Positions 2,969-58,241 of a DNA stretch of 64,000 nucleotides are shown here, one piece after another. Source of the DNA: an uncultured SAR86 cluster bacterium (lineage in GTDB: Bacteria; Pseudomonadota; Gammaproteobacteria; Magnimaribacterales; D2472); assembly GCA_902601475.1 (NCBI GenBank), contig CACKNK010000006.1, forward strand, positions 1,621 to 65,620, written 5' to 3'. A model generated the notes under the pieces. The model saw nothing but the letters and a program-made list of their open reading frames with translations. It was not told the origin of the DNA and did no database searches. The position numbers and the translations under genes are program-made. Each line of letters opens with the position of its first letter. Positions within the stretch are counted from its first letter, which is position 1.

Positions 2969-3817
2969 ATGAAAACAGCTTTAAGTGCAAAAATAGGCAA
3001 AAAAATTAAAGAGAAAAGGCTCGAACTTAAGCTAACAATTCATGAAGTATCAAATGAAATCAATTTAACTGAGAAATTTCTTAAGGCCATTGAAAATGGT
3101 GACTATAGTATCTTTCCGGCAAAAGCTTTTGCCAGAGGCTATTTTGTAAAATATACAACTCATCTAGGTTTGGATCTTGAATTTCCGGAACTTGCAAATG
3201 AGGTTTTTGAAGAAGATAAGCTTGCACAGTCCAATCAATCTGCAAAACGTGTAAAGGCTAAAAGCATAAATGATGTTATCGAATCTTATAAAAAACCCTT
3301 ATTAGTTGCAGGAATAATTTTATTTTTATTATTAATTGTTTCAGTTTTAGCAAGTAGCTCATCTGATGAAAACCAAATCAAGTCATCTTCTGATGAAGAA
3401 ACAATAGAAATTAATTCTATACCTTCATCCTCTCTAATAGATGATACACCTATAGATATTGAAGTTCCTGAAAGTTTAGATATGGAATCAAATGATAGTG
3501 AAATTTCTGTTGTTTCAACAAGCAGTAGAACCGATGAAATTAATCAACTTAAAAACATGCCCAAAAACCTTTTGAATTTAAATTTTAATGAAGAAAGTTG
3601 GGTAGAAATTTACTCTGCTGATCCGAGTGATTATTTCCAAGTGGTTTATAAGTTATTTTACGAAAATGAAACTTATCAACTTAAGGTTGAATCTCCACTT
3701 GTTGTAGTGGTTGGTAATGCATCAGGAGTTGTTGGCACATTCAATGATTTACCAATTGATTTTAGTGCTAATGCGAACAGACTTGATGTCAGCGTAATTA
3801 GGCTCTCAAATGGATAG
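2969..3817 (+). CDS. rodZ: cytoskeleton protein RodZ-like (HTH + TM + C-terminal domain)
   Basis: N-terminal XRE-type HTH ([25 protein letters not shown]), one TM segment ([18 protein letters not shown]), acidic/Ser linker. Conserved rlmN-rodZ-ispG order. Confidence 0.8.
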
Positions 3818-4913
3818 GGTTGTTGCGAACAGAAAAACAACAAAGCAGATAACTGTTGGGGATGTACATGTTGGAGGCAAGAGTCCTATCAGCATTCAAT
3901 CTATGACCAATACAAATACCGAAGATGTTGATGCCACTGTAAAGCAAATCAATGAGATTCATGCCGCAGGTGCTGATCTAGTGAGAGTTTCTGTGCCAAC
4001 ACTTGATGCAGCTAAAGCATTCAAAAAGATAAAAAGCGCTGTAGAAATTCCTCTAATCGCTGATATTCATTTCGATTATAAAATTGCTTTGGCAGTAGCA
4101 GATTCAGCAGATTGCCTTCGGATTAATCCAGGAAACATTGGTAAAGAAAATAAGATAAAAGAAGTTATTCAGGCTGCAAAGGATAATGAAATTCCAATTC
4201 GAATAGGAGTTAATGCCGGATCGTTGGAAAAAGAACTTCAAAGAAAATATGGTGAGCCTAACTCAGATGCACTAGTTGAATCTGCACTTAGGCATATCGA
4301 TATACTCAAAAAGTATAATTTTGATAATTTTAAATTAAGTCTAAAAGCTTCCAATATTGATATGACAGTAAACAGCTATCGCAAGATATCAAAATTAATT
4401 GATCAACCACTTCACTTGGGAATTACAGAATCAGGTACCCTGCGATCTGGAGCGGTAAAATCCTCGATTGGAATTGGAATGCTGCTAAGTGAAGGTATTG
4501 GCGATACGATTAGAATTTCACTTGCATCAAATCCTGTTGATGAAGTAAAGGTGGGCTGGGATATTTTAAAAAGTCTTAACTTGCGAAGTCGGGGCGTTAA
4601 AATCATTGCCTGCCCAAGTTGCTCAAGACAAAACTTTGATGTTATCAACGTAGTTAATGAGCTCGAATCAAGATTTGAAGACATTTCAGATGATATTGAA
4701 GTCGCTATAATCGGTTGCTATGTTAATGGTCCAGGGGAATCCAAAGCCGCTGATATAGGTCTTACTGGAGCCTCCCCAAAAAATCTTATGTATATCAATG
4801 GAGAACCAAGTGAAAAAGTTTCTAATGAGTCCCTTGTTGATAGAATTGAATTTGAAGTTCGTGAGCAGTTAAATAGAAATCAAAATGAATCTGATATTAT
4901 TGCTAAAGGTTAG
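3810..4913 (+). CDS. ispG: 4-hydroxy-3-methylbut-2-enyl diphosphate synthase (IspG/GcpE)
   Basis: [18 protein letters not shown] and ACPSCSR motifs. Confidence 0.95.
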
Positions 4914-43846: not shown

Positions 43847-44719
43847 ATGGTAGTAATTAGACTTGCAAAGAGTGGGGCAAAGAAAAACCCATATTTCTTT
43901 ATCACAGTAGCTGACTCTAGAATGCCTAGAGACGGTAGATTCATAGAAAGACTAGGTTTTTACAACCCATCTGCAAGAGGTTCTGAGGAAAGACTTCGTT
44001 TTAATACTGAGCGCTTTGATCATTGGGTCGGCCAAGGTGCACAAGTTTCAGATCGTGTGAAGGTTTTGCATCAAGAGGCTGAAATGTCTCCTGAAGATCT
44101 GGCTGCTAAATTCGAAAAAAGGGATTCTAAACGTCAAGCAAAAAAAGAAGCTAAAGCAGCAAAACTTGCAGAAGAAATGGCTGCATCTGAAGAGGCTGCA
44201 CCGGCAGAAGAGACTCCAGTAGAAGAAGCTCCAGCCGAAGAAGCCGCACCAGCAGAAGAAGCTCCAGCTGAGGAAGAAGCTCCAGCCGAAGAAGCTGCAC
44301 CAGCAGAAGAGGCTCCAGCTGAAGAAGCTGCACCTGCAGAAGAGGCTCCAGCTGAAGATGCTGCACCCGCAGAAGAGGCTCCAGTAGAAGAAGCTCCAGC
44401 TGAAGAAGAAGCTCCAGCTGAAGAAGCTGCACCAGCAGAAGAGGCTCCAGCTGAAGAAGCTGCACCTGCAGAAGAGGCTCCAGCTGAAGAAGCTGCACCA
44501 GCAGAAGAGGCTCCAGTAGAAGAAGCTCCAGCTGAAGAAGAAGCTCCAGCTGAAGAAGCTGCACCAGCAGAAGAGGCTCCAGCTGAAGAAGCTGCACCTG
44601 CAGAAGAGGCTCCAGCTGAAGAAGCTGCACCAGCAGAAGAGGCTCCAGTAGAAGAAGCTCCAGCTGAAGAAGAAGCTCCAGCTGAAGAAGATTCTCCATC
44701 AGATGACGAAAAGAAGTAA
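43847..44719 (+). CDS. rpsP: 30S ribosomal protein S16 with an approx. 210-aa acidic Glu/Ala/Pro-rich C-terminal extension
   Basis: First ~80 aa are canonical S16 ([35 protein letters not shown]). The same frame continues through ([11 protein letters not shown])n to TAA at 44717-44719. Confidence 0.9.
44216..44690 (+). repeat. coding tandem repeat in the rpsP tail: 132-bp unit (4 x 33-bp sub-units)
   Basis: 44381-44512 and 44513-44644 are identical base for base (checked by hand). 44645-44690 is a 46-nt partial third copy. 44216-44380 is a diverged 165-bp copy. Confidence 0.95.
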
Positions 44720-45227
44720 TTCTTTAGACGATAGCCACATATTAATTGGACGAATAGGTAGACCAAGAGGTCTCAAAGGTGAGTTTTTCATAAACTCATT
44801 TTCTGAATCATCAGAAGCTTTTTTAAAATATAAAAACTTTTTTCTTTATTCTGAATCAGAACTCGTTCCTGTTGATTTTGACTATTTAAAGAAACAGAAC
44901 CAGAAAATTATTGGAAAAATATCAGATATCAATACACCTGAAGATGCAGAAAGAATTAAAAATTCAGACCTTTTTTTGGATAAAAATGACCTTCCTGAAT
45001 TAGAAGACGGTTATTACTGGCATGAATTGTTAGGCATGAAGGTAATTAATTTAGATGGTGACGCTCTTGGAGAAGTGATTGCTATTAATAATTATGGATC
45101 AAACGACATGCTCGAAGTGAAGACCAAGAAGAAAAAACTACTTATTCCTTTTGTTAAAAACAGAATAATTTTTGATATCGATAAAGAAAAGAAAGTTATT
45201 AACGTTGATTGGTATGATTCCTACTGA
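44703..45227 (+). CDS. rimM: 16S rRNA processing protein RimM
   Basis: [15 protein letters not shown]-terminus. Position in rpsP-rimM-trmD-rplS. Confidence 0.9.
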
Positions 45228-45964
45228 TGGATATTAAATTTAATCTTATTACCTTATTTCCTGAAATCTATGATGCTTTGGATCATGGATTAATCGGTAA
45301 GGCCATTCAAAATAATGTAATCGAGTTAAATAAGATTCAATTACGAGATTTCGCAATTAATCAACATGGTCAGATAGATGGAAAACCGTTCGGAGGAGAA
45401 AAGGGCATGATTATGATGGTGGAGCCACTTGAAAATGCTTTGAAATCAATATCGCCCAAGAATAAACATATCGTTATAAATTTTTCACCTCAAGGAAAGC
45501 AATTAGGTCAAAACCTAGCTAAAAAAATGCTTGATTATGATGAAATTACTATTGTGAACGGAAGATATGAAGGTATTGATGAAAGGTTTATTGATAAATA
45601 TGTTGATTTAGAAGTTTCCTTGGGTGATTACGTTTTCAGCAATGGAGATTTGGCCAGCTTAGTTTTTATTGATGTTCTTGCAAGAATGATTCCTTCTGTC
45701 ATCGGAAAAGAGGAGTCTGTAACAGAAGACTCCTTCTTTAATGGACTGCTTAAAGGCCCCACATATACTCGACCTGAAGTCTATGATGGAATGAGTGTCC
45801 CAGAGATCCTGCTATCAGGAAATCATGAAGAAATAAAAGCTTGGCGAGAATATCAATCGATCAAGACCACACTTGAGAAAAGGCCTGAAATATTTGATAA
45901 AATAAAACTTACAAAAAAACAAAAAAAACTCTTGGAAGAATTAGATTCTAAGCGTATCCTATAG
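45227..45964 (+). CDS. trmD: tRNA (guanine37-N1)-methyltransferase
   Basis: ITLFPE, GRYEGIDERF, LSGNHEEI..WR. Confidence 0.95.
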   Translation: MDIKFNLITLFPEIYDALDHGLIGKAIQNNVIELNKIQLRDFAINQHGQIDGKPFGGEKGMIMMVEPLENALKSISPKNKHIVINFSPQGKQLGQNLAKKMLDYDEITIVNGRYEGIDERFIDKYVDLEVSLGDYVFSNGDLASLVFIDVLARMIPSVIGKEESVTEDSFFNGLLKGPTYTRPEVYDGMSVPEILLSGNHEEIKAWREYQSIKTTLEKRPEIFDKIKLTKKQKKLLEELDSKRIL

Positions 45965-45983
45965 CACATTTTAGGCCGTAGAC

Positions 45984-46592
45984 ATGTCAGATAAAGAAAT
46001 TGAAAACAACGCTTCTAACGAAGAAGCATCGGAAACAGTAGAAACTCCAGAATCAGTGGATTCTACTCCCGAAACAGCTGAAACTGTTGTTGAAGCTGAG
46101 GAAGCTTCAGCGCCTGAAGAATCTGTCCCTGAAGCACCCGCTGAGACTCCCGAACCTGAAGCAGATGTTCCTGCAGAAGAAGCTAGTGCTGCTGTGGAAG
46201 AGCCAGCTGAAGCTGTTTCAACAGCTAAGCTAGAAGAATTGTCGCCGGCGCAAATAGTTCAAAATTTCGAAAAATCTCAGTTAAAAGATGATGTACCTCC
46301 TTTTAGACCAGGAGATACTGTTGTTGTTTCAGTAAAAGTTAAAGAAGGTGAAAGAACTAGACTTCAAGCTTTTGAAGGCGTTGTTATGCACATCAAAAAT
46401 GCTGGTTTAAACTCATCATTCATCGTTAGAAAAATATCCAGCGGTATTGGTGTAGAAAGAACATTTCAAGTTCACAGCCCCATAATTGATTCCATCAAAG
46501 TTAAGCGTAAGGGCGACGTTAGAAAAGCTAAACTCTATTATTTAAGAGAGAGATCTGGAAGATCTGCTAGGATCAAAGAAAGACTCGAATAA
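45984..46592 (+). CDS. rplS: 50S ribosomal protein L19 with an approx. 85-aa acidic N-terminal extension (alternative in-frame TTG at 46239 would give a canonical-length protein)
   Basis: C-terminal 117 aa collinear with E. coli L19 ([29 protein letters not shown]). Upstream 85 codons are stop-free and E/A/P/T/S/V-rich. Confidence 0.85.
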
Positions 46593-51542: not shown

Positions 51543-54500
51543 TTGCAGAGAATTTATTCAAAACTACTTTTATTAACACTATTTAGCACCTCCATTGTTG
51601 CTCAAGAGCAAATTGGTGTGGCTGCTGCAGTCAACCGTAATACTACTGACCTAACGCTGGAACAAGAAAGAAAACTCGTTGAAGCGGGTTATCAAATCAT
51701 TCAAAACCATACCATTGAAACCGATGAAATCGGTAAAGCTCAGATGCTCTTACTCGATGGAACCGCTTTCTCAGTTGGACCTAATTCAAGCGTGGTGCTT
51801 GATCGTTTTATTTATAATCCGGAAACAGCGGAAGGTTCCTTAGAAGTAACCGCACGAGGTCTTTTAAGAATTGTTGGTGGAAAGGTCACCAAAAAACAAC
51901 CCGCGCTGATAAGAACTAATTCAGCAACTGTGGGGATCAGAGGCGGAATCGGAATTGTCCAAACCGATGGCTCGCAAGTCAATGCGACCTTCTTGTACGG
52001 TGAGGAAATGACAGTGACCCCAAATTGTGTGGATCTTGATACGTTTGGCGATCAATGCGGTAGCGATTTTATTACCACCATCACCGAACCAGGTTTTTCA
52101 GTGACGGTTGAGTCAGCTGACTCTGAACCTTCAGAACCTGAGCCGGTAACTGAAGAAAGCTTAGAAGCCGTTCAAGATGAATTAGAGGCCAGTGAAGATG
52201 AGCCAGCCGAAGAAGAATCTTCAAGTGATGAATCTTCTTCAGAAGAAAGCTCTGATGAATCAAGTTCTGAAGAGTCCTCAAGCGAAGAGAGTTCAGATGA
52301 GTCTAGCTCAGAGGAATCTTCAAGCGAAGAGAGTTCTGATGAATCCTCTAGTGAAGAAAGCTCAGATGATTCAAGTTCTGACGAATCATCTAGTGATGAG
52401 TCCTCCTCAGATGAGTCTTCCAGCGATGAATCTTCTGCTGATGATTCAGTTGCCAGCGATAGCTCATCCGATGATGCATCTTCAGATTCATCAAGTGATG
52501 AACCTACTAATGAAGTTGCTCAAGAAACAGAATCAGATACTGAAGTTACGACTGAAGTTGCTGATGCTGGTGGTGATGGTGGAACAACTGAAGTTGAAGT
52601 TGATGAGGGACTTTTAGATAGCTCTGGAGTCTCTGATGTTTCTTCTGATGTGGCCCCTGATGAACTGGGTACCGCCGATGCGTTTGAAGTTGAAACCGAA
52701 GTTGATTTAGTTGATGTGGATGAGAGTCCAGCCGAAGAAGTCACCGAAGAAGTTGCGCAAACCACCCAAGAAACCACTGCAGAGGTCGCACCCATTTTTG
52801 AAGTGGAAACTACTGAAGTGGTTGAAAGTGTCGATGAAAATACGACTGAGATCAGCTTGGCATCTTTTGCTGTAGTCAATCCAGGCGATCAAAACTTTAC
52901 TGTGTCTGTCGAAGGTGAGGGCAGTGAGGCCTTTACTTATAACGAAGCAACCAACTCCTTAGAAATTACTGAAGCTTTGGATCATGAAAGCCAAGAAGCG
53001 GTTGAACTGACCGTGACCTTTACCAGCGAAAATGGTGATGTTCAAGAAGTTGCCTTAGCTTTAAATGTTGCTGATGTGGATGAAGCCGTTGAACTTGCTG
53101 TTGAACCGGTCAACACCATTAGTGAAGCTGCTATTAGTGCTGAACTCGTTGCCAATCAGGTCAATGTATCTGAAACGGTACCCGCTGGAACTGTGGTGGC
53201 TACTTTTAGTGCCACTGATCCTGAGGGCAATGCCTTAACTTATTCATTAACTGGAGCCGGTAGTGAACTGATGAGCGTTTCTGAAACCGGAGAAGTGACC
53301 CTTACTGGTAATCTAGATTTTGAAACGAATTCAACCCTAGTCATGACATTGGAAGTCTCTGATGGGACTAATACCACCACCGAAGAAATTACTATTAACG
53401 TTATTAACGATGATGAGCCTGCCACCATTGCAGCGACTTTAAGTGCTACCTCATTTGCAGAAAACTCTGCTGTGGGAGCTGCCATTGCATCGGTGAATGC
53501 CACCGATCCTGAAGGCAGTGCGGTGACTTACACATTATCAGGCACAGGCAGCGATAACTTTAGTATTGATACCAGCGGTAACATTACTCTTGCCAGCACC
53601 TTGGATTATGAAACGACAACCTCATATGAACTAACCGTCGTTGTCGATGATGGCACTTATGCTTCTACTGAAGTCATCACCGTGAGTGTTGCCGACGTCA
53701 ATGAAGCCCCAACATTAAGCGCAACGGTAGCCTTCAACGCTTTCCAAGAAAATACTGCTACCGGTACCACGATTGCTACGAGTTCAGTCACCGATCCGGA
53801 GGCAGGAGCCATTACGTACAGTCTTTCTGGCACCGGCAGTGAGAACTTTTCAGTCAGTTCTGATGGTACGGTGAGTTTAGCGAGCACCCTGGATTATGAA
53901 ACTGCCACTGGATATGAAATTACCCTAACAGCCTCCGATGGCGATAATACCGTTTCTGAAATCCTCACTATCAATGTGGGCGATATTAATGAAGCGCCAA
54001 CCGTTACCACAACTCTAGCAACCTCAAGTGTTGCAGAAGATGCAGCCACCGGAACTACCGTTGCGACCAGCACAGCAAGCGATCCAGAGTCCAGCACCAT
54101 CACTTATTCACTCAGCGGAACCGGTAGTGATAACTTTAGCGTTGATGCCAACGGTAATGTCACTGTGGCTAGTAGCTTAGATTATGAAACGACCACCTCT
54201 TATACCATTACTTTAACCGCTAGCGACGGGTCCAATTCAACCCAAGAAACCATCACCATTAATGTCAGTGACGTGGATGAATTTACTCTGGCACTTTCAA
54301 GTACGTCACCTGCTATTAACGAAGGCGTCAGCACTGGAACTCAAGTCGCTACTTCAACCTTAACCCAGCAAGACAGTGCTTCAGTAACTTATTCTTTATC
54401 AGGTACTGGCAGCGATAAGTTTGCCATTTCCAGCAGTGGGGTGATTACCACCGCAGCAGCGATGGATTTTGAAACCACCTCATCCTATTCACTCACTGTA

Positions 54501-57500
54501 ACTGTCACTGATGGGACTAATACTGATACTGAAACCATTAATATTAGTATTAATAATGTTTCTCTTAATACTCTAGCAACCACTTTAGCCAACAGCGGGG
54601 CAGCGCTGGCTGAATCATCCAGCTCAGGCACAGCTGTTGCTAGCTCCAGCATCAACAACCCCGACAGTGAAACGATTACCTATACGCTAAGCGGTACCGG
54701 TAGCAACAAATTCTCTGTTGATTCATCAGGAAATGTGACCACTAACGGAACGCTGGATTTTGAAACGGCTAAAAGCTATGCGCTAACTCTAACCGCCACT
54801 GCAGGCAGCACGTCAGTGACCGACACCTTTACAGTTAATGTCGGTAACGTAGCTGAGCTTAATGCAGCGGTGCTTCGCTATTCAGCAGCTTACAACTCAG
54901 TTTCACGCACTGGCTTTAGTGCCACTGCAACGCGAGGAGCTTCAGGATCGAGCTTACCAGCCTACTACTTAGAGCAAGTTGGTACGACTGCCACAACAAA
55001 TTTCAATGATGTTTTTGATCATGACGGTGATGTTCGAAACAACCATAGCCCTACAGTTAGAGTGGAAATTGGTGGTGGAACCCAACTTAACTTTGAGTAT
55101 ATTTTTCCAATAACCTCTCTTGGGGGCGCTGCAGGGGTTTATGCTCCAAGTATGTACGGCAGTTATGGTGTTGTGAATACAACTGTTCTCGGTAATAATG
55201 CTGCATATAGAGGGATTCTGACCAACCAAATATTAGCGGCTGCTGACGTGGTTGGTACTACCGGAAATTCACCTACCATAACTGATAATGAGATTGTAAG
55301 TGCCGGTGCATTCATGCAATATTCGGGATCAGGAAACGGCGTAAACGCATCAACAGGCGGCGATTTCGCCTTTATGACAACAAATTTAGCTGGTGCGTCT
55401 CTAAGCTACCAATCCTCAAGTGGACAACGCACGTATGGAGTCATTGTTGGTGATACTTCAACAAGTTACGGTAGCGGTTACACTGGAGTGGGCAGCTATT
55501 GGCAAAATGCGATTACCGGAGCTGGCTACACATTTCAAAATTGTGTGGCTGCCAACGTTAAGACTTGTCTTAATAATGCAGGCATTGATCTTGATGATGT
55601 AGGAATTATCGTAAATAACAGCCCTGGTACCGTTACATTTGGTTATAGCTACAGTGAACTTGCCGATTGGATTGATGGTGGAGGAAATTATGCTGCCACC
55701 ATGTGGGAACATTCGGGTTGGAGCACAAGAGGTATGAATGGCGACCAACATGAAGATATTTTTGCAGGCCTTGGGTGGAGTGGTTTTAGTGGTAATACCG
55801 TTGGTGGCCACGTAAGTCCTAGTACTTCAATTTCACAATCAACTGTTGATGCAATCACTAATGGCGGAGGTACTTTAAATTATTCAGCCCTTGTAGGTAG
55901 AACTCACTCCTTCAATGCGGCCGGGATTATGAACATCCCATCAGTTTGTAACTCTTTGGTAAATGGGACAATTAGTGGTGCCAGCGGCGCTTCAACTTTC
56001 ATCTGTGATCCAGGACGAACCGGTTCAAACGGTGCTGTTTTAGGGGTAGCAGATTACAATGCGTATACGTCTTCAGGTAGTGGTAATTCATTCATCATGA
56101 ATTGGTTTGCGGGTTTGAATATTGGCTCTGCAGTCACTTCCACCTACAACCTCTTTGAAGATCAAACAACTTTAGCAGGTCAAATTTATACCGATGCCAT
56201 GTGGGACACATTTGTTGGTTGTACTTCTGGTGATTGCTCTGATAAGTTTTCAGGAAATATACTTTATTTTGCTGTATTGCCTATTGAGTATCTAGGCACC
56301 AGTCTTAACTTAGATTCTGATAACTGGTTTTATCCTAACTTTATGCCCATGACCAATTCAAACATTTGGACCTATGGAGACGTGGGGTTACGTTATTGCT
56401 CTCCAGGAGCCAATGCTGGTTCTGAATGTTCCAGCCATACCTATGATGATGCTTATGCATGGCAATCGCTAGCCTTAAATCCTGTGTCCTCCTCAAGCCT
56501 CCACACAAATTCAAGAGAATATGATGTGGGGGGGAATGATATTCCTGAGGGCTCAAGCTTCTTTAAGCAAATGGTTAAATATGATGGAGTGGGTGTCGGG
56601 ATGTGGGCACAAATTTCCTTCGCTGACTCATATGCCGACGATAGTGATGCCAGTAATACTAGAGATGATCAACAAAGCTTACTCAATGTAGTAATCACAA
56701 ACATGAATCGACGCAGCAACATGACCTCGATGTACTCAGCCGGAGACAGCGGTTTTGGGATGGATGGTTATCATTATTGGTCCTATCAAGGGGCGACCAA
56801 TGCCAATGATAATGGTCTCGGAGTTGTTTACGGTACGTCACCGGTAGAATGCGCTACTTCCAATGAAACTGCTTGTTTCTGGGCACCGGATGCTAAAGAG
56901 TCAGCCGGCGGTACCGGCAATCCTTCAGACACTGCAGCTCCAAGTGCAATGTTCTTAACGTCTTCAGATCCATATGCATCAGGAAATATGGGATTAGGTG
57001 TTTCTTATAACGCTAACACCGATGCTTTTTTAACCGGTTCTTTTAATCAGGCTTTAATCAGACAAAATGTAAAAAATGGCAATGGTAATTGGCGGTCTTA
57101 CACCGATACCAGTACTTATCGAAAAACTAATTTAGGTCAGAACTCTTTCCCATCAAGCGGCTCGAGCACTTCAGGCACTTTAGATTGGAGTGGGTACTTT
57201 AATGGTATTTTGGAGTTTGATGTAAGCGGTGCCAGCAACAATCAATTCGCTTCCATTGGAACAGGCAGTACCCGAGCAAGCTTTACTTTTAATTATGGCA
57301 CTAACTTTGCTGAGGTCGTGGCGCCAATGGATATTACTGCATTTGCTTCAAATAATTACACAGCAAATTGGACCACTGTTGATACTGGCTCGATGACCTT
57401 AAAATTTGGAGACCTTGACAATACCGATGCAAAATCTGCATTTTTAGCCAATAAAGTTTTTGCTGCTGAAATTCAAGATGATGGCACACAGATTGATAGT

Positions 57501-58241
57501 ACTTCTGGTGGTTCCAACAATCTCGCTGGCGTTATGGTTACTTGGCAGAGCCTTGATAATCCTGATTCAACTTTGTACAACGGAATGTCGAATGTAGGTA
57601 ATGGCGATGCATTTAGTGATACTCAAGGGAATGCTAACTACGCATCATGGGGTTTTTGGGCTATGAGTTCTGCTGATATTGCTGTAGCTACCGGCGATCA
57701 AAACGCCTCGGTGCATTTAGGTACCTGGGTTGGCGGAGAACTCATCGATCAAAGTTTAATTCCAACCTCAGGATCGGCAAATATGAATGGAGGGGCAGTG
57801 TTTAATGTGGCTTATCGACATAATGCAAGCGGCACTGATTACGACGTGCATAAATACACCAGCACCGCAGATGTTAGCGCAACTTTTAATTGGGGTACAA
57901 GCGGATATTCAGGATCTATAACTTTTGAAAACTTTGATGATAAGAATCCAATTGTAGCGAATGCCGGCTTCTTTGATATCAATGGTTTCTTTACAGTGCC
58001 AATTGTTGGCACCGATCAACATTACAGCGGGAGCCTAACACCAAGCATGCAAAATGGCTGGTCGGGCACTGCATCAGTCAAGGGAAGTCTTTACGGCGGT
58101 CAATATACTGCGTATGGGGTTACACATACAGTGAGAGAAAGCGGAGGAAGCTTTGACGTAAATATTTACAAGACTGGCGATACTTCAACTGCTGGAGCTA
58201 ATGATTTTTATACGGCAGAAGGTATTTATTTAATCTATTAA
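51543..58241 (+). CDS. giant secreted surface/adhesin-like protein (2,232 aa): signal peptide, FecR-like domain, poly-Ser/Asp/Glu tract, cadherin-like repeats, large unassigned C-terminal region
   Basis: Uninterrupted 6.7-kb ORF. TTG start with GGGAG about 10 nt upstream. Signal peptide MQRIYSKLLLLTLFSTSIVA. Repeats visible by eye in the translation. Confidence 0.9.
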   Translation: MQRIYSKLLLLTLFSTSIVAQEQIGVAAAVNRNTTDLTLEQERKLVEAGYQIIQNHTIETDEIGKAQMLLLDGTAFSVGPNSSVVLDRFIYNPETAEGSLEVTARGLLRIVGGKVTKKQPALIRTNSATVGIRGGIGIVQTDGSQVNATFLYGEEMTVTPNCVDLDTFGDQCGSDFITTITEPGFSVTVESADSEPSEPEPVTEESLEAVQDELEASEDEPAEEESSSDESSSEESSDESSSEESSSEESSDESSSEESSSEESSDESSSEESSDDSSSDESSSDESSSDESSSDESSADDSVASDSSSDDASSDSSSDEPTNEVAQETESDTEVTTEVADAGGDGGTTEVEVDEGLLDSSGVSDVSSDVAPDELGTADAFEVETEVDLVDVDESPAEEVTEEVAQTTQETTAEVAPIFEVETTEVVESVDENTTEISLASFAVVNPGDQNFTVSVEGEGSEAFTYNEATNSLEITEALDHESQEAVELTVTFTSENGDVQEVALALNVADVDEAVELAVEPVNTISEAAISAELVANQVNVSETVPAGTVVATFSATDPEGNALTYSLTGAGSELMSVSETGEVTLTGNLDFETNSTLVMTLEVSDGTNTTTEEITINVINDDEPATIAATLSATSFAENSAVGAAIASVNATDPEGSAVTYTLSGTGSDNFSIDTSGNITLASTLDYETTTSYELTVVVDDGTYASTEVITVSVADVNEAPTLSATVAFNAFQENTATGTTIATSSVTDPEAGAITYSLSGTGSENFSVSSDGTVSLASTLDYETATGYEITLTASDGDNTVSEILTINVGDINEAPTVTTTLATSSVAEDAATGTTVATSTASDPESSTITYSLSGTGSDNFSVDANGNVTVASSLDYETTTSYTITLTASDGSNSTQETITINVSDVDEFTLALSSTSPAINEGVSTGTQVATSTLTQQDSASVTYSLSGTGSDKFAISSSGVITTAAAMDFETTSSYSLTVTVTDGTNTDTETINISINNVSLNTLATTLANSGAALAESSSSGTAVASSSINNPDSETITYTLSGTGSNKFSVDSSGNVTTNGTLDFETAKSYALTLTATAGSTSVTDTFTVNVGNVAELNAAVLRYSAAYNSVSRTGFSATATRGASGSSLPAYYLEQVGTTATTNFNDVFDHDGDVRNNHSPTVRVEIGGGTQLNFEYIFPITSLGGAAGVYAPSMYGSYGVVNTTVLGNNAAYRGILTNQILAAADVVGTTGNSPTITDNEIVSAGAFMQYSGSGNGVNASTGGDFAFMTTNLAGASLSYQSSSGQRTYGVIVGDTSTSYGSGYTGVGSYWQNAITGAGYTFQNCVAANVKTCLNNAGIDLDDVGIIVNNSPGTVTFGYSYSELADWIDGGGNYAATMWEHSGWSTRGMNGDQHEDIFAGLGWSGFSGNTVGGHVSPSTSISQSTVDAITNGGGTLNYSALVGRTHSFNAAGIMNIPSVCNSLVNGTISGASGASTFICDPGRTGSNGAVLGVADYNAYTSSGSGNSFIMNWFAGLNIGSAVTSTYNLFEDQTTLAGQIYTDAMWDTFVGCTSGDCSDKFSGNILYFAVLPIEYLGTSLNLDSDNWFYPNFMPMTNSNIWTYGDVGLRYCSPGANAGSECSSHTYDDAYAWQSLALNPVSSSSLHTNSREYDVGGNDIPEGSSFFKQMVKYDGVGVGMWAQISFADSYADDSDASNTRDDQQSLLNVVITNMNRRSNMTSMYSAGDSGFGMDGYHYWSYQGATNANDNGLGVVYGTSPVECATSNETACFWAPDAKESAGGTGNPSDTAAPSAMFLTSSDPYASGNMGLGVSYNANTDAFLTGSFNQALIRQNVKNGNGNWRSYTDTSTYRKTNLGQNSFPSSGSSTSGTLDWSGYFNGILEFDVSGASNNQFASIGTGSTRASFTFNYGTNFAEVVAPMDITAFASNNYTANWTTVDTGSMTLKFGDLDNTDAKSAFLANKVFAAEIQDDGTQIDSTSGGSNNLAGVMVTWQSLDNPDSTLYNGMSNVGNGDAFSDTQGNANYASWGFWAMSSADIAVATGDQNASVHLGTWVGGELIDQSLIPTSGSANMNGGAVFNVAYRHNASGTDYDVHKYTSTADVSATFNWGTSGYSGSITFENFDDKNPIVANAGFFDINGFFTVPIVGTDQHYSGSLTPSMQNGWSGTASVKGSLYGGQYTAYGVTHTVRESGGSFDVNIYKTGDTSTAGANDFYTAEGIYLIY
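51690..52020 (+). other. FecR-like beta-sandwich domain of the giant protein (approximate bounds)
   Basis: GKAQMLLLDGTAFSVGPNSSVVLDRFIYNP...LEVTARGLLRIVGGKV...ATVGIRGG resembles FecR/LipL45-type domains (pattern recognition only). Confidence 0.5.
52190..52505 (+). repeat. poly-Ser/Asp/Glu low-complexity coding tract: (SSSEE-SSDE-SSSEE)x3 then (SSSDE)x4
   Basis: About 105 aa, nearly all S, D or E. Peptide repeats are exact but encoded with different Ser/Glu/Asp codons in each unit. Confidence 0.95.
52855..54860 (+). repeat. tandem array of cadherin-like domains (1 degenerate + 6 clear, ~97 aa each)
   Basis: Recurring V.E...GT.VAT..ATDPE....TYSLSGTGS..F.....G.VT....LDYET..SY.LT..A.DG......I.INV.DVNEAP. 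Approximate unit boundaries: 53160, 53441, 53723, 54013, 54294, 54583. Confidence 0.8.
57640..58238 (+). other. C-terminal beta-barrel-like module of the giant protein (TbpB-type or OM-anchor-type; speculative)
   Basis: Alternating-residue strands separated by Gly/Asn/Ser turns (GSANMNGGAVFNV, VSATFNWGTSGYSGSITF, ASVKGSLYGG, YTAEGIYLIY) with a terminal aromatic residue. Confidence 0.35.

What the first reader, a model, noticed from the sequence alone, without database searches (positions are those of the whole stretch)
45984..46241. L19, in the same operon, has a matching ~85-aa acidic N-terminal extension, or else an unusual 258-nt stop-free leader
The canonical L19 sequence begins at about codon 86, and an in-frame TTG at 46239-46241 would give a 117-aa protein (E. 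coli L19 is 115 aa). The ORF nevertheless stays open back to an ATG at 45984, 19 nt after trmD. Those 85 codons encode [78 protein letters not shown]. This is the same E/A/P-dominated composition as the S16 tail, and the DNA is much more GC-rich than true intergenic spacers here. A random 258-nt stop-free stretch is unlikely in an AT-rich genome, so I favour a real extension. Two ribosomal proteins of different subunits, co-transcribed and both acquiring polyacidic disordered arms, suggests a shared and undescribed function. Possibilities include surface charge, cation buffering, ribosome spacing or hibernation, or tethering.
Basis: partly seen in the sequence, partly recalled or inferred. Interest (0 to 1): 0.55.

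Follow-up and report, generated by a model that had tools for sequence, protein, structure and literature searches.

The report
Acidic disordered N-terminal arm on L19
In this SAR86 marine bacterium, ribosomal protein L19 is almost certainly made with an extra 85-residue, strongly negatively charged, floppy N-terminal arm; the arm is kept throughout the SAR86 clade, and its function is unknown.

Summary
The rplS ORF runs from ATG 45984, 19 nt after the trmD stop, to 46592 (202 aa). The Pfam L19 domain covers only residues 91-200.

The 85 upstream codons are coding, not a leader:
- GC by codon position is 0.73/0.48/0.19.
- dN/dS is 0.22-0.65, against 0.02-0.09 in the core, with equal dS.
- In 89 of 92 complete SAR86-clade loci, an ATG 18-22 nt after trmD opens an unbroken frame into the L19 core (extensions of 47-249 aa). 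The three exceptions are frameshifts inside repeats of MAG assemblies.
- The spacer motif TTTTAGGC-N6-8-ATG is conserved.
- The alternative TTG 46239 occurs only in the closest relatives. Most relatives have AAA, AGA or GCC there and no nearby start codon.

The arm has net charge -26, no aromatic residues, and is predicted to be disordered. Across the clade its sequence is not conserved, but its charge and composition are.

Many SAR86 lineages carry a longer form: a KKKGFFSRLFG amphipathic helix, a SAP/Rho-N-like helix-loop-helix, and an acidic linker. The window's lineage has lost the first two modules.

Ala/Glu-rich tails on bacterial S16 and on the C-terminus of L19 are already catalogued. 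An N-terminal one on L19 is a new variant. Its function remains inferred.

The parts
43847..44719 (+). rpsP (bS16), 290 aa. The S16 domain is at the N-terminus. From about 44102 there is a 205-aa tail (net charge -64) built of 15/18-nt EAP repeats and ending in DSPSDDEKK.
44703..45227 (+). rimM. The predicted start overlaps the rpsP 3' end by 17 nt.
45227..45964 (+). trmD. The stop TAG is at 45962-45964.
45965..45983 (+). The 19-nt trmD-rplS spacer, carrying the clade-conserved motif TTTTAGGC (45969-45976). Its AGG (45973-45975) lies 8 nt before the ATG and is the likely ribosome-binding site.
   Evidence: the motif T-T-T-[TC]-A-G-G-[CT] is present 7-10 nt upstream of the ATG in all 35 aligned SAR86 loci.
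45984..45986 (+). ATG, the inferred true start codon of rplS.
45984..46238 (+). The 85-codon N-terminal extension of bL19. It has 28 Asp/Glu and 2 Lys/Arg (net charge -26), pI about 4.05, no aromatic residues, and is predicted disordered.
46239..46241 (+). TTG, read here as Leu86 and not as a conserved start. L001 and L085 have TTA; most relatives have AAA, AAG, AGA, GAT or GCC.
46239..46592 (+). The canonical bL19 core (117 codons plus stop). The Pfam domain covers residues 91-200 of the 202-aa protein.

Best explanation
rplS is translated from ATG 45984, using the conserved AGG-containing spacer just after trmD. The product is a 202-aa (about 22.1 kDa) bL19 whose first 85 or so residues form an intrinsically disordered polyanionic arm with net charge -26.

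In chloroplast ribosome structures, the bL19 N-terminus lies on the 50S surface beside the 3'-terminal part of the large-subunit rRNA (H100/H101, the 4.5S/4.8S-rRNA equivalent) and uL3. A chain this acidic cannot pack on rRNA, so the arm must project into solvent as a flexible, negatively charged brush or tether. That step is inferred.

The arm is a clade-wide SAR86 trait. It is selected for bulk properties (length of at least about 47 aa, 33-41% Asp/Glu, almost no Lys/Arg, no aromatics) rather than for sequence.

The ancestral arm was probably the linker of a three-part extension: an N-terminal basic amphipathic helix (KKKGFFSRLFG), a small SAP/Rho-N-like helix-loop-helix domain, and the acidic linker. 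The window's lineage has lost the two terminal modules and kept only the polyanionic linker.

The most likely present role is electrostatic or entropic. The arm would add surface charge to the ribosome and/or shield the basic (+11) L19 core before assembly, working alongside the -64 tail of bS16 on the 30S subunit.

Translation of the arm and the selection acting on it are shown. Its position on the ribosome and its physical role are inferred. The confidence of 0.6 is for the whole statement, including a selected function for the polyanion; translation of the arm on its own I put at about 0.9.
For: Coding signature:
- GC at codon positions 1/2/3 is 0.73/0.48/0.19, so the high GC comes from Glu/Ala/Pro/Val codons while the third position stays AT-rich, as in the core.
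- Nei-Gojobori dN/dS among five close genomes is 0.22-0.65 in the extension and 0.02-0.09 in the core. dS is the same in both, 0.14-0.28 against 0.12-0.29.

Frame conservation:
- In 35 of 38 complete SAR86-clade genome loci, an ATG 18-22 nt after the trmD stop opens a frame that runs unbroken into the core. Extensions are 54-249 aa and every length difference is in frame.
- The same holds in 54 of 54 complete metagenome loci, with extensions of 47-234 aa.
- Non-SAR86 gammaproteobacteria have nothing comparable: 0-11 residues upstream of the aligned core start, apart from one 56-aa basic, non-acidic upstream ORF (TTG start, overlapping trmD) in the GC-rich L076.

No alternative start:
- The junction codon is TTG in only 5 of 48 sequences (4 genome loci plus the window). 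The nearest relative, L001, has TTA. L085, whose core is 100% identical, also has TTA.
- 31 of 45 sequences (44 genome loci plus the window) and 50 of 80 metagenome loci have no in-frame ATG, GTG or TTG from -25 to +12 codons around the core start.

Initiation region: the spacer motif TTTTAGGC-N6-8-ATG is conserved in all 35 aligned loci, and the N-terminus M-[STAN]-[DE]..K..EN is conserved.

Disorder and composition: AlphaFold2 gives pLDDT below 50 and no secondary structure for residues 7-83, and the first helix starts at residue 88. In short-form lineages with almost no sequence identity, net charge stays between -19 and -40, Asp+Glu is 0.33-0.41, Lys+Arg is at most 5, and there are no aromatics.

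Evolution: the extension-bearing loci form one clade. Long modular forms sit at three positions in it, including L006, the sister of the window's group. This implies repeated loss of the module with retention of the arm.

Position of the L19 N-terminus: PMC5071890 and PMC5694952.
Against: - There is no direct protein or start-site evidence. Trypsin would release residues 5-82 as a single 78-residue peptide (Lys only at positions 4 and 82), so standard proteomics would probably miss the arm.
- dN/dS reaches 0.65 and length is very variable. This fits weak constraint and repeat slippage as well as it fits function.
- Three MAG loci (L012, L036, L040) have frameshifts inside the repeat region. 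In L036 and L040 the S16 tail is frameshifted too, which points to assembly error, but real pseudo-frames cannot be formally excluded.
- The SD-like motif is only an AGG, and other genes in the operon show weak or no SD, so its role is inferred.
- The physical role of the arm (brush, chaperone or tether remnant) is not tested by anything here.
Confidence: 0.6

Rival explanations
1. The arm is translated but has no function of its own. It would be a tolerated low-complexity expansion, produced by replication slippage or gene conversion from the nearby S16 repeat array, sitting on a solvent-exposed terminus and drifting in length and sequence.
For: - Length ranges from 47 to 249 aa, and relatives carry tandem repeats.
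- In several genomes the L19 arm and the S16 tail share 26-35 nt of exact DNA, more than the between-genome medians. Assemblers even produce S16/L19 chimeras through these repeats (P0242, P0184).
- dN/dS is up to 0.65.
- Sequence identity between clades is very low.
Against: - None of the 89 intact SAR86-clade loci has an arm shorter than 47 aa, although in-frame deletions are frequent within species. These are small, AT-rich genomes (this window is about 27-43% GC outside the acidic repeats; the one complete chromosome among the hits is 1.30 Mb) and this is a highly expressed protein.
- The arm persisted after two or three independent losses of the terminal module.
- dN/dS is below 1 in all ten genome pairs.
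- Charge and composition are held constant across clades.
- In the window, the arm is no longer a copy of the S16 repeat.
Confidence: 0.25
2. The arm is a pro-sequence. It would be translated, perhaps to keep the basic core soluble or to guide assembly, and then cleaved off near the conserved junction, so that the mature ribosome carries a normal-length bL19. This would be analogous to the N-terminal extension of bL27 that the Prp protease removes in Firmicutes (from my own knowledge).
For: - The junction motif ([VI]-S-L-[ED]-E in most lineages, AKLEE in the window's group) just before [KRL]-[ST]-P-[AS]-Q-I is the best-conserved part of the extension outside the first residues.
- The -26 arm against the +11 core would make a good intramolecular charge shield.
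Against: - No candidate protease is known or seen in the operon.
- Sister lineages carry a confidently folded domain and a membrane-type amphipathic helix on the same arm, which is unusual for a disposable pro-peptide.
- The conserved junction may simply be the N-cap of the first L19 helix, which starts at residue 88.
Confidence: 0.07
3. There is dual initiation in the window's own species group: ATG 45984 gives the long form and TTG 46239 gives a canonical 117-aa form.
For: TTG is present at the junction in the window and in most of its closest relatives (L002-L005, L081-L084, L086-L089).
Against: - Two close relatives, L001 and L085 (whose core is 100% identical to the window's), have TTA there.
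- There is no SD-like sequence upstream (AAGCTAGAAGAA).
- TTG is also simply a Leu codon.
- Outside this group the position is Lys, Arg, Asp or Ala.
Confidence: 0.05
4. Positions 45984-46238 are an untranslated, stop-free mRNA leader, and L19 starts at TTG 46239.
For: - The region folds somewhat better than shuffles (z = -2.74).
- Stop-free frames arise easily in GAA/GCT-rich DNA; frame -1 is also open.
Against: - The frame is maintained through dozens of in-frame indels in 89 of 92 loci.
- Most relatives have no start codon near the core.
- Codon-position GC periodicity and dN/dS below 1.
- The ATG and its upstream motif are conserved.
- No Rfam leader family matches.
- The long-range pairing in the predicted fold uses TCGCCGGCG, which is specific to this window; relatives have TCACCAGCG.
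Confidence: 0.03

Closest known systems
Ala/Glu-rich low-complexity terminal extensions of bacterial ribosomal proteins (Ntountoumi et al. 2019, NAR, PMC6821194): S16 tails in many genera, L19 tails mostly in Alphaproteobacteria
   Same: Both are acidic, Ala/Glu(/Pro)-rich, low-complexity additions to an otherwise canonical and essential r-protein. The survey's authors argue that their prevalence in such abundant proteins implies an important function still to be investigated, and none has been demonstrated. S16 and L19 are both among the affected proteins.
   Different: All the catalogued L19 regions shown in the part of the supplementary table that I read begin at residue 120 or later, so they are C-terminal, and they are Ala/Glu/Lys-rich. 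The SAR86 arm is N-terminal, on a different face of the protein. In this window it is only 48% Ala+Glu, with much Ser/Thr/Pro/Val and almost no Lys.
Chloroplast bL19c N-terminal extension (spinach chlororibosome; PMC5071890, PMC5694952)
   Same: It is an extension at the same terminus of bL19. It shows where an L19 N-terminal addition emerges: next to the H100/H101-equivalent 4.5S/4.8S rRNA loop and uL3.
   Different: It has an independent, plastid-specific origin. It is ordered enough to contact rRNA, so it is not a polyanion repelled by RNA, and it is shorter. L19's N- and C-terminal extensions together total 46 residues; the mature protein starts at residue 78 and the model at residue 118.
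FtsY A domain of proteobacteria (N-terminal lipid-binding helix followed by a long acidic, flexible region; PMC4602035)
   Same: The long-form SAR86 L19 arms have the same layout: a basic amphipathic N-terminal helix (KKKGFFSRLFG) followed by a long acidic disordered region. The motif resembles the E. coli FtsY N-terminus and the MinD C-terminal membrane-targeting sequence. That resemblance is from my own memory and was not verified here.
   Different: The window's arm lacks the helix entirely: it reads [14 protein letters not shown], with no hydrophobic residues. There is no homology to FtsY, and the window holds no ORF with FtsY's GTPase motif (G-x-G-K-T-T) or its GFF[SA][RKW]L / GFL[KR]RLF-type helix (motif scan). 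Membrane binding is untested.
Acidic stalk proteins (bL12; archaeal and eukaryotic P1/P2)
   Same: They are acidic, flexible ribosomal protein segments that project from the ribosome surface (my own knowledge).
   Different: Stalk proteins have a defined, conserved C-terminal factor-binding element and sit at the GTPase-associated centre. The L19 arm has no conserved terminal motif in this window and emerges elsewhere on the 50S.

Membership tests
bL19 (Pfam PF01245 Ribosomal_L19) | Match to the family profile above the curated threshold | tested here: met
   160.5 bits against a cutoff of 22; residues 91-200 cover profile positions 2-111 of 111.
bL19 (Pfam PF01245 Ribosomal_L19) | Position in the conserved rpsP-rimM-trmD-rplS operon | tested here: met
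   All four genes are adjacent on the + strand.
bL19 (Pfam PF01245 Ribosomal_L19) | Canonical length of about 115-120 aa with the start just before the first helix | tested here: not met
   The protein is 202 aa, with an 85-aa addition before the core. It is a member of the family with an atypical architecture.
Ala/Glu-rich low-complexity extensions of bacterial r-proteins (PMC6821194) | Low-complexity, terminally located acidic segment on an r-protein | tested here: met
   Shannon entropy is 2.97 bits, against 3.92 for the core. The segment has 28 Asp/Glu and 2 Lys/Arg and is N-terminal. The survey's own LCR caller was not run.
Ala/Glu-rich low-complexity extensions of bacterial r-proteins (PMC6821194) | More than 70% Ala+Glu content (the subclass that dominates the S16 and L19 entries) | tested here: not met
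   The L19 arm is 48% Ala+Glu. The S16 tail in the same operon is 74%.
Ala/Glu-rich low-complexity extensions of bacterial r-proteins (PMC6821194) | Same location as the catalogued L19 regions (C-terminal, residue 120 or later) | tested here: not met
   The arm is N-terminal. All the catalogued L19 entries I read are C-terminal.
SAR86 long-form L19 extension (amphipathic helix + SAP-like domain + acidic linker) | N-terminal K-K-K-G-F-F-S-R-L-F-G amphipathic motif | tested here: not met
   It is absent from the window and from L001-L004, and present in L006, L011, L013-L014, L016-L020 and others.
SAR86 long-form L19 extension (amphipathic helix + SAP-like domain + acidic linker) | Helix-loop-helix domain ..LNKMKKADIV..AK.NGL.LDI.LTK..LLEAW.. 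| tested here: not met
   It is absent from the window's arm. In relatives it is predicted with pLDDT above 90. Fold matches to Rho-N and SAP domains are weak (E 0.6-2, rmsd 1.5-2 Å over about 43 residues).
SAR86 long-form L19 extension (amphipathic helix + SAP-like domain + acidic linker) | Same start context, conserved first residues, acidic linker and conserved junction into the core | tested here: met
   The same spacer motif and ATG, M-S-D-K start, acidic stretch and ..LEE-[LKR]-[ST]-P-A-Q-I junction are all present. The window's group is sister to the long-form L006.
r-protein mRNA leader or attenuator RNA | Match to a curated leader family, or a conserved structure | tested here: not met
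   No relevant Rfam hit at E up to 1. The predicted long-range pairing is not conserved in relatives.
Cleaved N-terminal pro-sequence (bL27/Prp type) | Dedicated protease and a cleavage event | not testable with these tools
   No protease gene is in the operon. Cleavage can only be shown by protein analysis.

The most novel reading that the evidence does not exclude
SAR86 ribosomes carry built-in polyanionic tethers. The bL19 N-terminal arm was ancestrally tipped by a membrane-binding amphipathic helix and a SAP-like nucleic-acid-binding domain, and still is in most SAR86 lineages. Together with the bS16 tail, it would position or space ribosomes relative to the membrane or nucleoid in these very small cells. 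The window's lineage lost the anchor but keeps the arm, which would mean the polyanion itself has a selected role, such as ribosome surface charge, anti-aggregation, cation handling, or self-chaperoning of the basic core.
Probability: 0.2. Interest if true: 0.75.

Novelty: new variant of a known kind. Interest (0 to 1): 0.45.

Why it matters
SAR86 is described as one of the most abundant uncultivated bacterial lineages in the surface ocean (PMC3358033 abstract), and its genomes are small: the one complete chromosome among the hits is 1.30 Mb. Even so, it spends 85-250 extra codons on L19, and 40-215 on S16, in two of its most highly expressed proteins.

If the arms are functional, they are an unstudied way of modifying the bacterial ribosome surface. 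In the long forms they may link ribosomes to membrane or nucleic acid without any extra factor.

There are also practical consequences:
- rplS start sites in SAR86 should be annotated at the upstream ATG.
- The repeats shared between rpsP and rplS cause frameshifts and chimeric contigs in assemblies.
- The arm is nearly invisible to trypsin-based metaproteomics.

Tried and rejected
- **Pfam on the long-form N-terminal module:** only sub-threshold noise.
- **Sequence search of the module against PDB:** only a non-significant Ku70 SAP-domain match and a short GFFSRLFGG match in a BamC.
- **Foldseek against PDB:** the top local hits are consistently SAP or Rho-N-like, but E is 0.6 or higher, so I treat the fold assignment as a lead only.
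- **Module search in the 5.8-billion-protein set:** 117 hits, and every one I inspected (the 11 sequences and the 30 aligned) begins with the SAR86 L19-type N-terminal module. Many are truncated or joined to the S16 C-terminal end. No other protein family shares the module at this sensitivity.
- **Rfam scan of the operon:** only chance isrG hits on the antisense strand of the S16 repeats.
- **RNA-leader idea:** z = -2.74, but the pairing is not conserved.
- **Exact-sequence look-up of the window's L19:** not on record.
- **Literature searches for SAR86 r-protein extensions, bL19 N-terminal extensions, or proteomic evidence:** nothing specific.
- **N-extended L19 representatives outside SAR86:** most are over-called ORFs in GC-rich genomes or chimeras. 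Real acidic N-terminal arms were seen only in a Chloroflexota MAG lineage (P0354/P0387) and one unplaced protein (P0323).
- **Looking for FtsY or GFFSRL-type motifs in the window:** none.
Full report
**1. What is in the sequence**

The window carries the classical operon rpsP (43847-44719), rimM (44703-45227), trmD (45227-45964) and rplS.

The rplS ORF opens at ATG 45984, 19 nt after the trmD stop codon, and ends at 46592 (202 aa). Pfam's L19 profile matches only residues 91-200. An in-frame TTG at 46239 would give a 117-aa protein.

The 85 upstream codons encode a peptide with 28 Asp/Glu and 2 Lys/Arg. Its net charge is -26 and its pI about 4.05, and it has no aromatic residues. The core has net charge +11. 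GC rises to 0.47-0.53 over this stretch, against 0.27-0.38 around it.

By composition alone, an 88-codon open stretch has probability 0.002-0.007. One reverse frame of the same stretch is also open, so openness by itself is not decisive.

**2. Organism and relatives**

A scan of one genome per species returned 80 loci. The closest hits (88-96% identity) are SAR86-cluster single-cell genomes and MAGs. The window is therefore from a SAR86 gammaproteobacterium.

**3. Is the stretch translated?**

Five independent lines say yes.

(a) *Codon-position composition.* GC1/GC2/GC3 is 0.73/0.48/0.19. The raised GC comes entirely from first and second positions (Glu, Ala, Pro and Val codons). The third position is as AT-rich as in the core (0.25).

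(b) *Substitution pattern.* Among the window and four close genomes, dS is the same in extension and core (0.14-0.28 against 0.12-0.29). dN/dS is 0.22-0.65 in the extension and 0.02-0.09 in the core. The arm is therefore under purifying selection, though much weaker than the core.

(c) *Frame conservation.*
- In the genome set, every complete locus with a SAR86-type core (at least 80% identity) has an ATG 18-22 nt after the trmD stop. In 35 of 38 of these loci the frame runs unbroken into the core. Extensions are 54 to 249 aa, and every length difference is a multiple of three.
- The three exceptions (L012, L036, L040) begin with the same N-terminus and then shift frame inside the tandem repeats. 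In L036 and L040 the S16 tail is frameshifted too. This points to indel errors in those assemblies.
- In a second, independent sample of 80 marine metagenome contigs, all 54 loci that hold both the trmD end and the L19 core are intact (extensions of 47-234 aa). The other 26 are cut by contig ends.
- Gammaproteobacteria outside the clade have nothing comparable: 0-11 residues upstream of the aligned core start, except for L076, where a 56-aa basic, non-acidic upstream ORF with a TTG start overlaps trmD.

(d) *No alternative start.*
- The junction codon is TTG in only 5 of 48 sequences (4 genome loci plus the window).
- L001, the nearest genome, has TTA. So does metagenome locus L085, whose core is 100% identical to the window's.
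- Elsewhere the codon is AAA, AAG, AGA, CAA, CTT, GAT or GCC.
- 31 of 45 sequences (44 genome loci plus the window) and 50 of 80 metagenome loci have no in-frame ATG, GTG or TTG anywhere from 25 codons before to 12 codons after the core start.
- In those organisms an essential protein can only be made from the upstream ATG.

(e) *Initiation region.* The trmD-rplS spacer is conserved across the clade as TAG-C[AC]C[AT]TTT[TC]AGG[CT]-N6-8-ATG. The first residues, M-[STAN]-[DE]..K..E-N, are conserved as well. I read the AGG, which lies 7-10 nt upstream, as a weak Shine-Dalgarno element. This is an inference, because other genes in the operon show little SD.

The leader alternative finds no support. 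No Rfam family matches. The modest folding z-score of -2.74 rests partly on a pairing with TCGCCGGCG, which only this window has.

**4. What kind of polypeptide it is**

AlphaFold2, run with an alignment of 18 homologues, gives pLDDT below 50 and no secondary structure for residues 7-83. The first helix of L19 starts at residue 88.

Short-form arms from different SAR86 subclades share almost no sequence, but they keep four properties:
- 33-41% Asp+Glu;
- net charge between -19 and -40;
- at most 5 Lys/Arg;
- no aromatic residues.

Selection therefore acts on bulk physical properties, as is typical of functional disordered regions. Weak constraint is the other possible reading.

**5.

Many SAR86 lineages have a longer arm of up to 249 aa with three parts:
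- an invariant basic amphipathic motif, K-K-(K)-G-F-F-S-R-L-F-G, at residues 8-18;
- a domain of about 42 residues, ..ALNKMKKADIV..AK.NGL.LDI.LTK..LLEAW..HF;
- acidic EAP/EEV repeats that lead into the conserved junction.

The middle domain is predicted with pLDDT above 90 as a helix-loop-helix. Its best structural matches are the Rho N-terminal subdomain and SAP domains (FAN1, 3'hExo, MKL1, DEK), with rmsd of 1.5-2 Å over about 43 residues. The E-values are not significant. A weak sequence match to the Ku70 SAP domain points the same way. Pfam does not recognise the domain.

In the 5.8-billion-protein collection, every module hit I inspected begins with this SAR86 L19-type N-terminal module.

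A TrmD+L19-core neighbour-joining tree places all arm-bearing loci in one clade. Long forms sit at three positions, one of them (L006) sister to the window's group. The simplest history is a long ancestral arm, followed by two or three losses of the terminal modules. The window has the reduced form: the start, the acidic linker and the junction are retained, and the helix and the domain are gone.

No lineage has lost the acidic part.

**6. Relation to the S16 tail**

An acidic S16 tail is present in every SAR86-clade locus that holds rpsP (total protein length 126-299 aa), usually ending in DSS[DE]DEKK. Shorter tails also occur in outgroups that have no L19 arm.

In several genomes (L010, L022, L030, L027, L029, L031) the L19 arm and the S16 tail share 28-35 nt of exact DNA, more than the between-genome medians. 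Assemblies contain chimeras that join the two through these repeats: P0184 and others end in the S16 C-terminal motif, and P0242 is an S16-L19 fusion. Sequence exchange between the two arrays therefore seems to occur in the clade.

In this window, however, the longest shared word is 12 nt, which is the background level. The L19 arm is non-repetitive apart from a few degenerate 21-nt units, and it has a different composition (48% against 74% Ala+Glu). The 'match' here is compositional only.

**7. How it most likely works**

*Shown:* the arm is translated and maintained by selection.

*Inferred:* in chloroplast ribosome structures the N-terminal extension of bL19 lies at the 50S surface, next to the loop equivalent to H100/H101 of the 23S 3' region and to uL3 (PMC5071890, PMC5694952). 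A -26 polyanion cannot dock on rRNA, so the SAR86 arm should project into solvent from that point.

I favour an electrostatic or entropic role. The arm would act as a charged brush on the ribosome surface and/or as an intramolecular shield for the +11 core before assembly, in parallel with the -64 tail of bS16. I also read the arm as the surviving linker of an ancestral tether. [quoted passage not shown] The sequence likeness to the E. coli FtsY and MinD motifs is from my own memory and was not verified here.

My confidence values are:
- translation of the arm: about 0.9;
- a selected function for the polyanion, the headline explanation: about 0.6;
- tolerated repeat expansion with no function: 0.25;
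- cleaved pro-sequence: 0.07;
- dual initiation: 0.05;
- untranslated leader: 0.03.

**8. Comparison with what is known**

Ntountoumi et al. 2019 (PMC6821194) catalogued low-complexity regions in prokaryotic proteomes. They report that S16 (157 of 187 regions) and L19 (24 of 32) are among the r-proteins with mostly Ala/Glu-rich regions, and they conclude that this prevalence implies an important functional role still to be investigated. The L19 entries in the part of their supplementary table that I read all start at residue 120 or later, and most are from Alphaproteobacteria.

An N-terminal acidic arm on bacterial L19 is therefore not in that catalogue, and my literature searches found no description of it.

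It is not unique to SAR86. A Chloroflexota MAG lineage (P0354/P0387) and one unplaced protein (P0323) have similar arms. Most other 'N-extended' L19 predictions are over-called ORFs.

I therefore file this as a new variant of a known kind, namely acidic low-complexity r-protein extensions. It has one unexpected twist: the modular long form in sister lineages.

**9. Verdict**

Interest is 0.45. The finding would be a modest surprise to a ribosome specialist. It is made more interesting by the strict retention of the arm across these small AT-rich genomes and by the membrane-helix/SAP-like modules in relatives. It lacks any functional or protein-level evidence.

Noticed in passing
Relatives: L006, L011, L013, L014, L016-L020, L022, L026-L035, L038, L041 (upstream of the L19 core); proteins P0121-P0237, P0250: Many SAR86 lineages have a long-form L19 N-terminal extension with three parts: an invariant KKKGFFSRLFG amphipathic motif, a confidently predicted helix-loop-helix domain of about 42 aa (SAP/Rho-N-like by weak fold matches), and acidic repeats. 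Every hit I inspected begins with this SAR86 L19-type N-terminal module. This suggests a ribosome-borne membrane or nucleic-acid tether.
   Followed up: partly
window 44102-44716 (rpsP tail) and the rpsP genes of L001-L049: The bS16 acidic tail is present in every SAR86-clade locus that holds rpsP and usually ends in a conserved DSS[DE]DEKK-type motif (DSPSDDEKK here). Shorter acidic tails occur in outgroups (L066, L072, L075, L077, L078) that lack the L19 arm.
   Followed up: partly
L010, L022, L027, L029, L030, L031; proteins P0184, P0138, P0141, P0144, P0168, P0188, P0242: In several SAR86 genomes the L19 arm and the S16 tail share 28-35 nt of identical repeat DNA. Public assemblies contain chimeric ORFs that jump between the two arrays (the L19 N-module joined to the S16 C-terminal motif; an S16-L19 fusion lacking rimM and trmD). 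This indicates sequence exchange or concerted evolution, and it is an assembly and annotation hazard.
   Followed up: partly
L012 (about 3760-4010), L036 (about 3600-4010), L040 (about 3230-4010): Three MAG loci have frameshifts inside the L19 repeat region. L036 and L040 also have frameshifted S16 tails. These are probably indel errors in repeats rather than pseudogenes.
   Followed up: partly
window 44134-44766 and 44151-44699 (- strand); window 45984-46238, reverse frame: There are long antisense ORFs (210 and 182 aa) across the S16 repeats and a stop-free reverse frame across the L19 arm. These are compositional artefacts of GAA/GCT-rich repeats. The weak Rfam isrG hits at 44229-44651 (-) are chance matches in the same repeats.
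   Followed up: yes
window 45965-46260: The RNA of the arm region folds better than shuffled controls (z = -2.74). The long-range stem is not conserved in relatives, but the local hairpins (palindromic GAAGCTTC/CAGCTG-type words) were not examined for conservation.
   Followed up: partly
window 51543-58241 (+): A giant 2232-aa ORF with at least seven cadherin-type domains and a very acidic Ser/Glu/Asp-rich segment near residue 200. It is probably a large surface or adhesion protein.
   Followed up: no
window 44703-44719 and 45224-45227: The predicted rimM start overlaps the rpsP 3' end by 17 nt, and the trmD ATG (45227) overlaps the last base of the rimM stop codon. This is consistent with translational coupling along the operon. 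rplS, by contrast, has its own conserved 19-nt spacer.
   Followed up: no
proteins P0354/P0387 (Chloroflexota MAG L19, 176 aa) and P0323 (205 aa): Independent acidic N-terminal extensions of L19 exist outside SAR86, at least one of them in a Chloroflexota MAG lineage. Their distribution and start sites were not examined.
   Followed up: no
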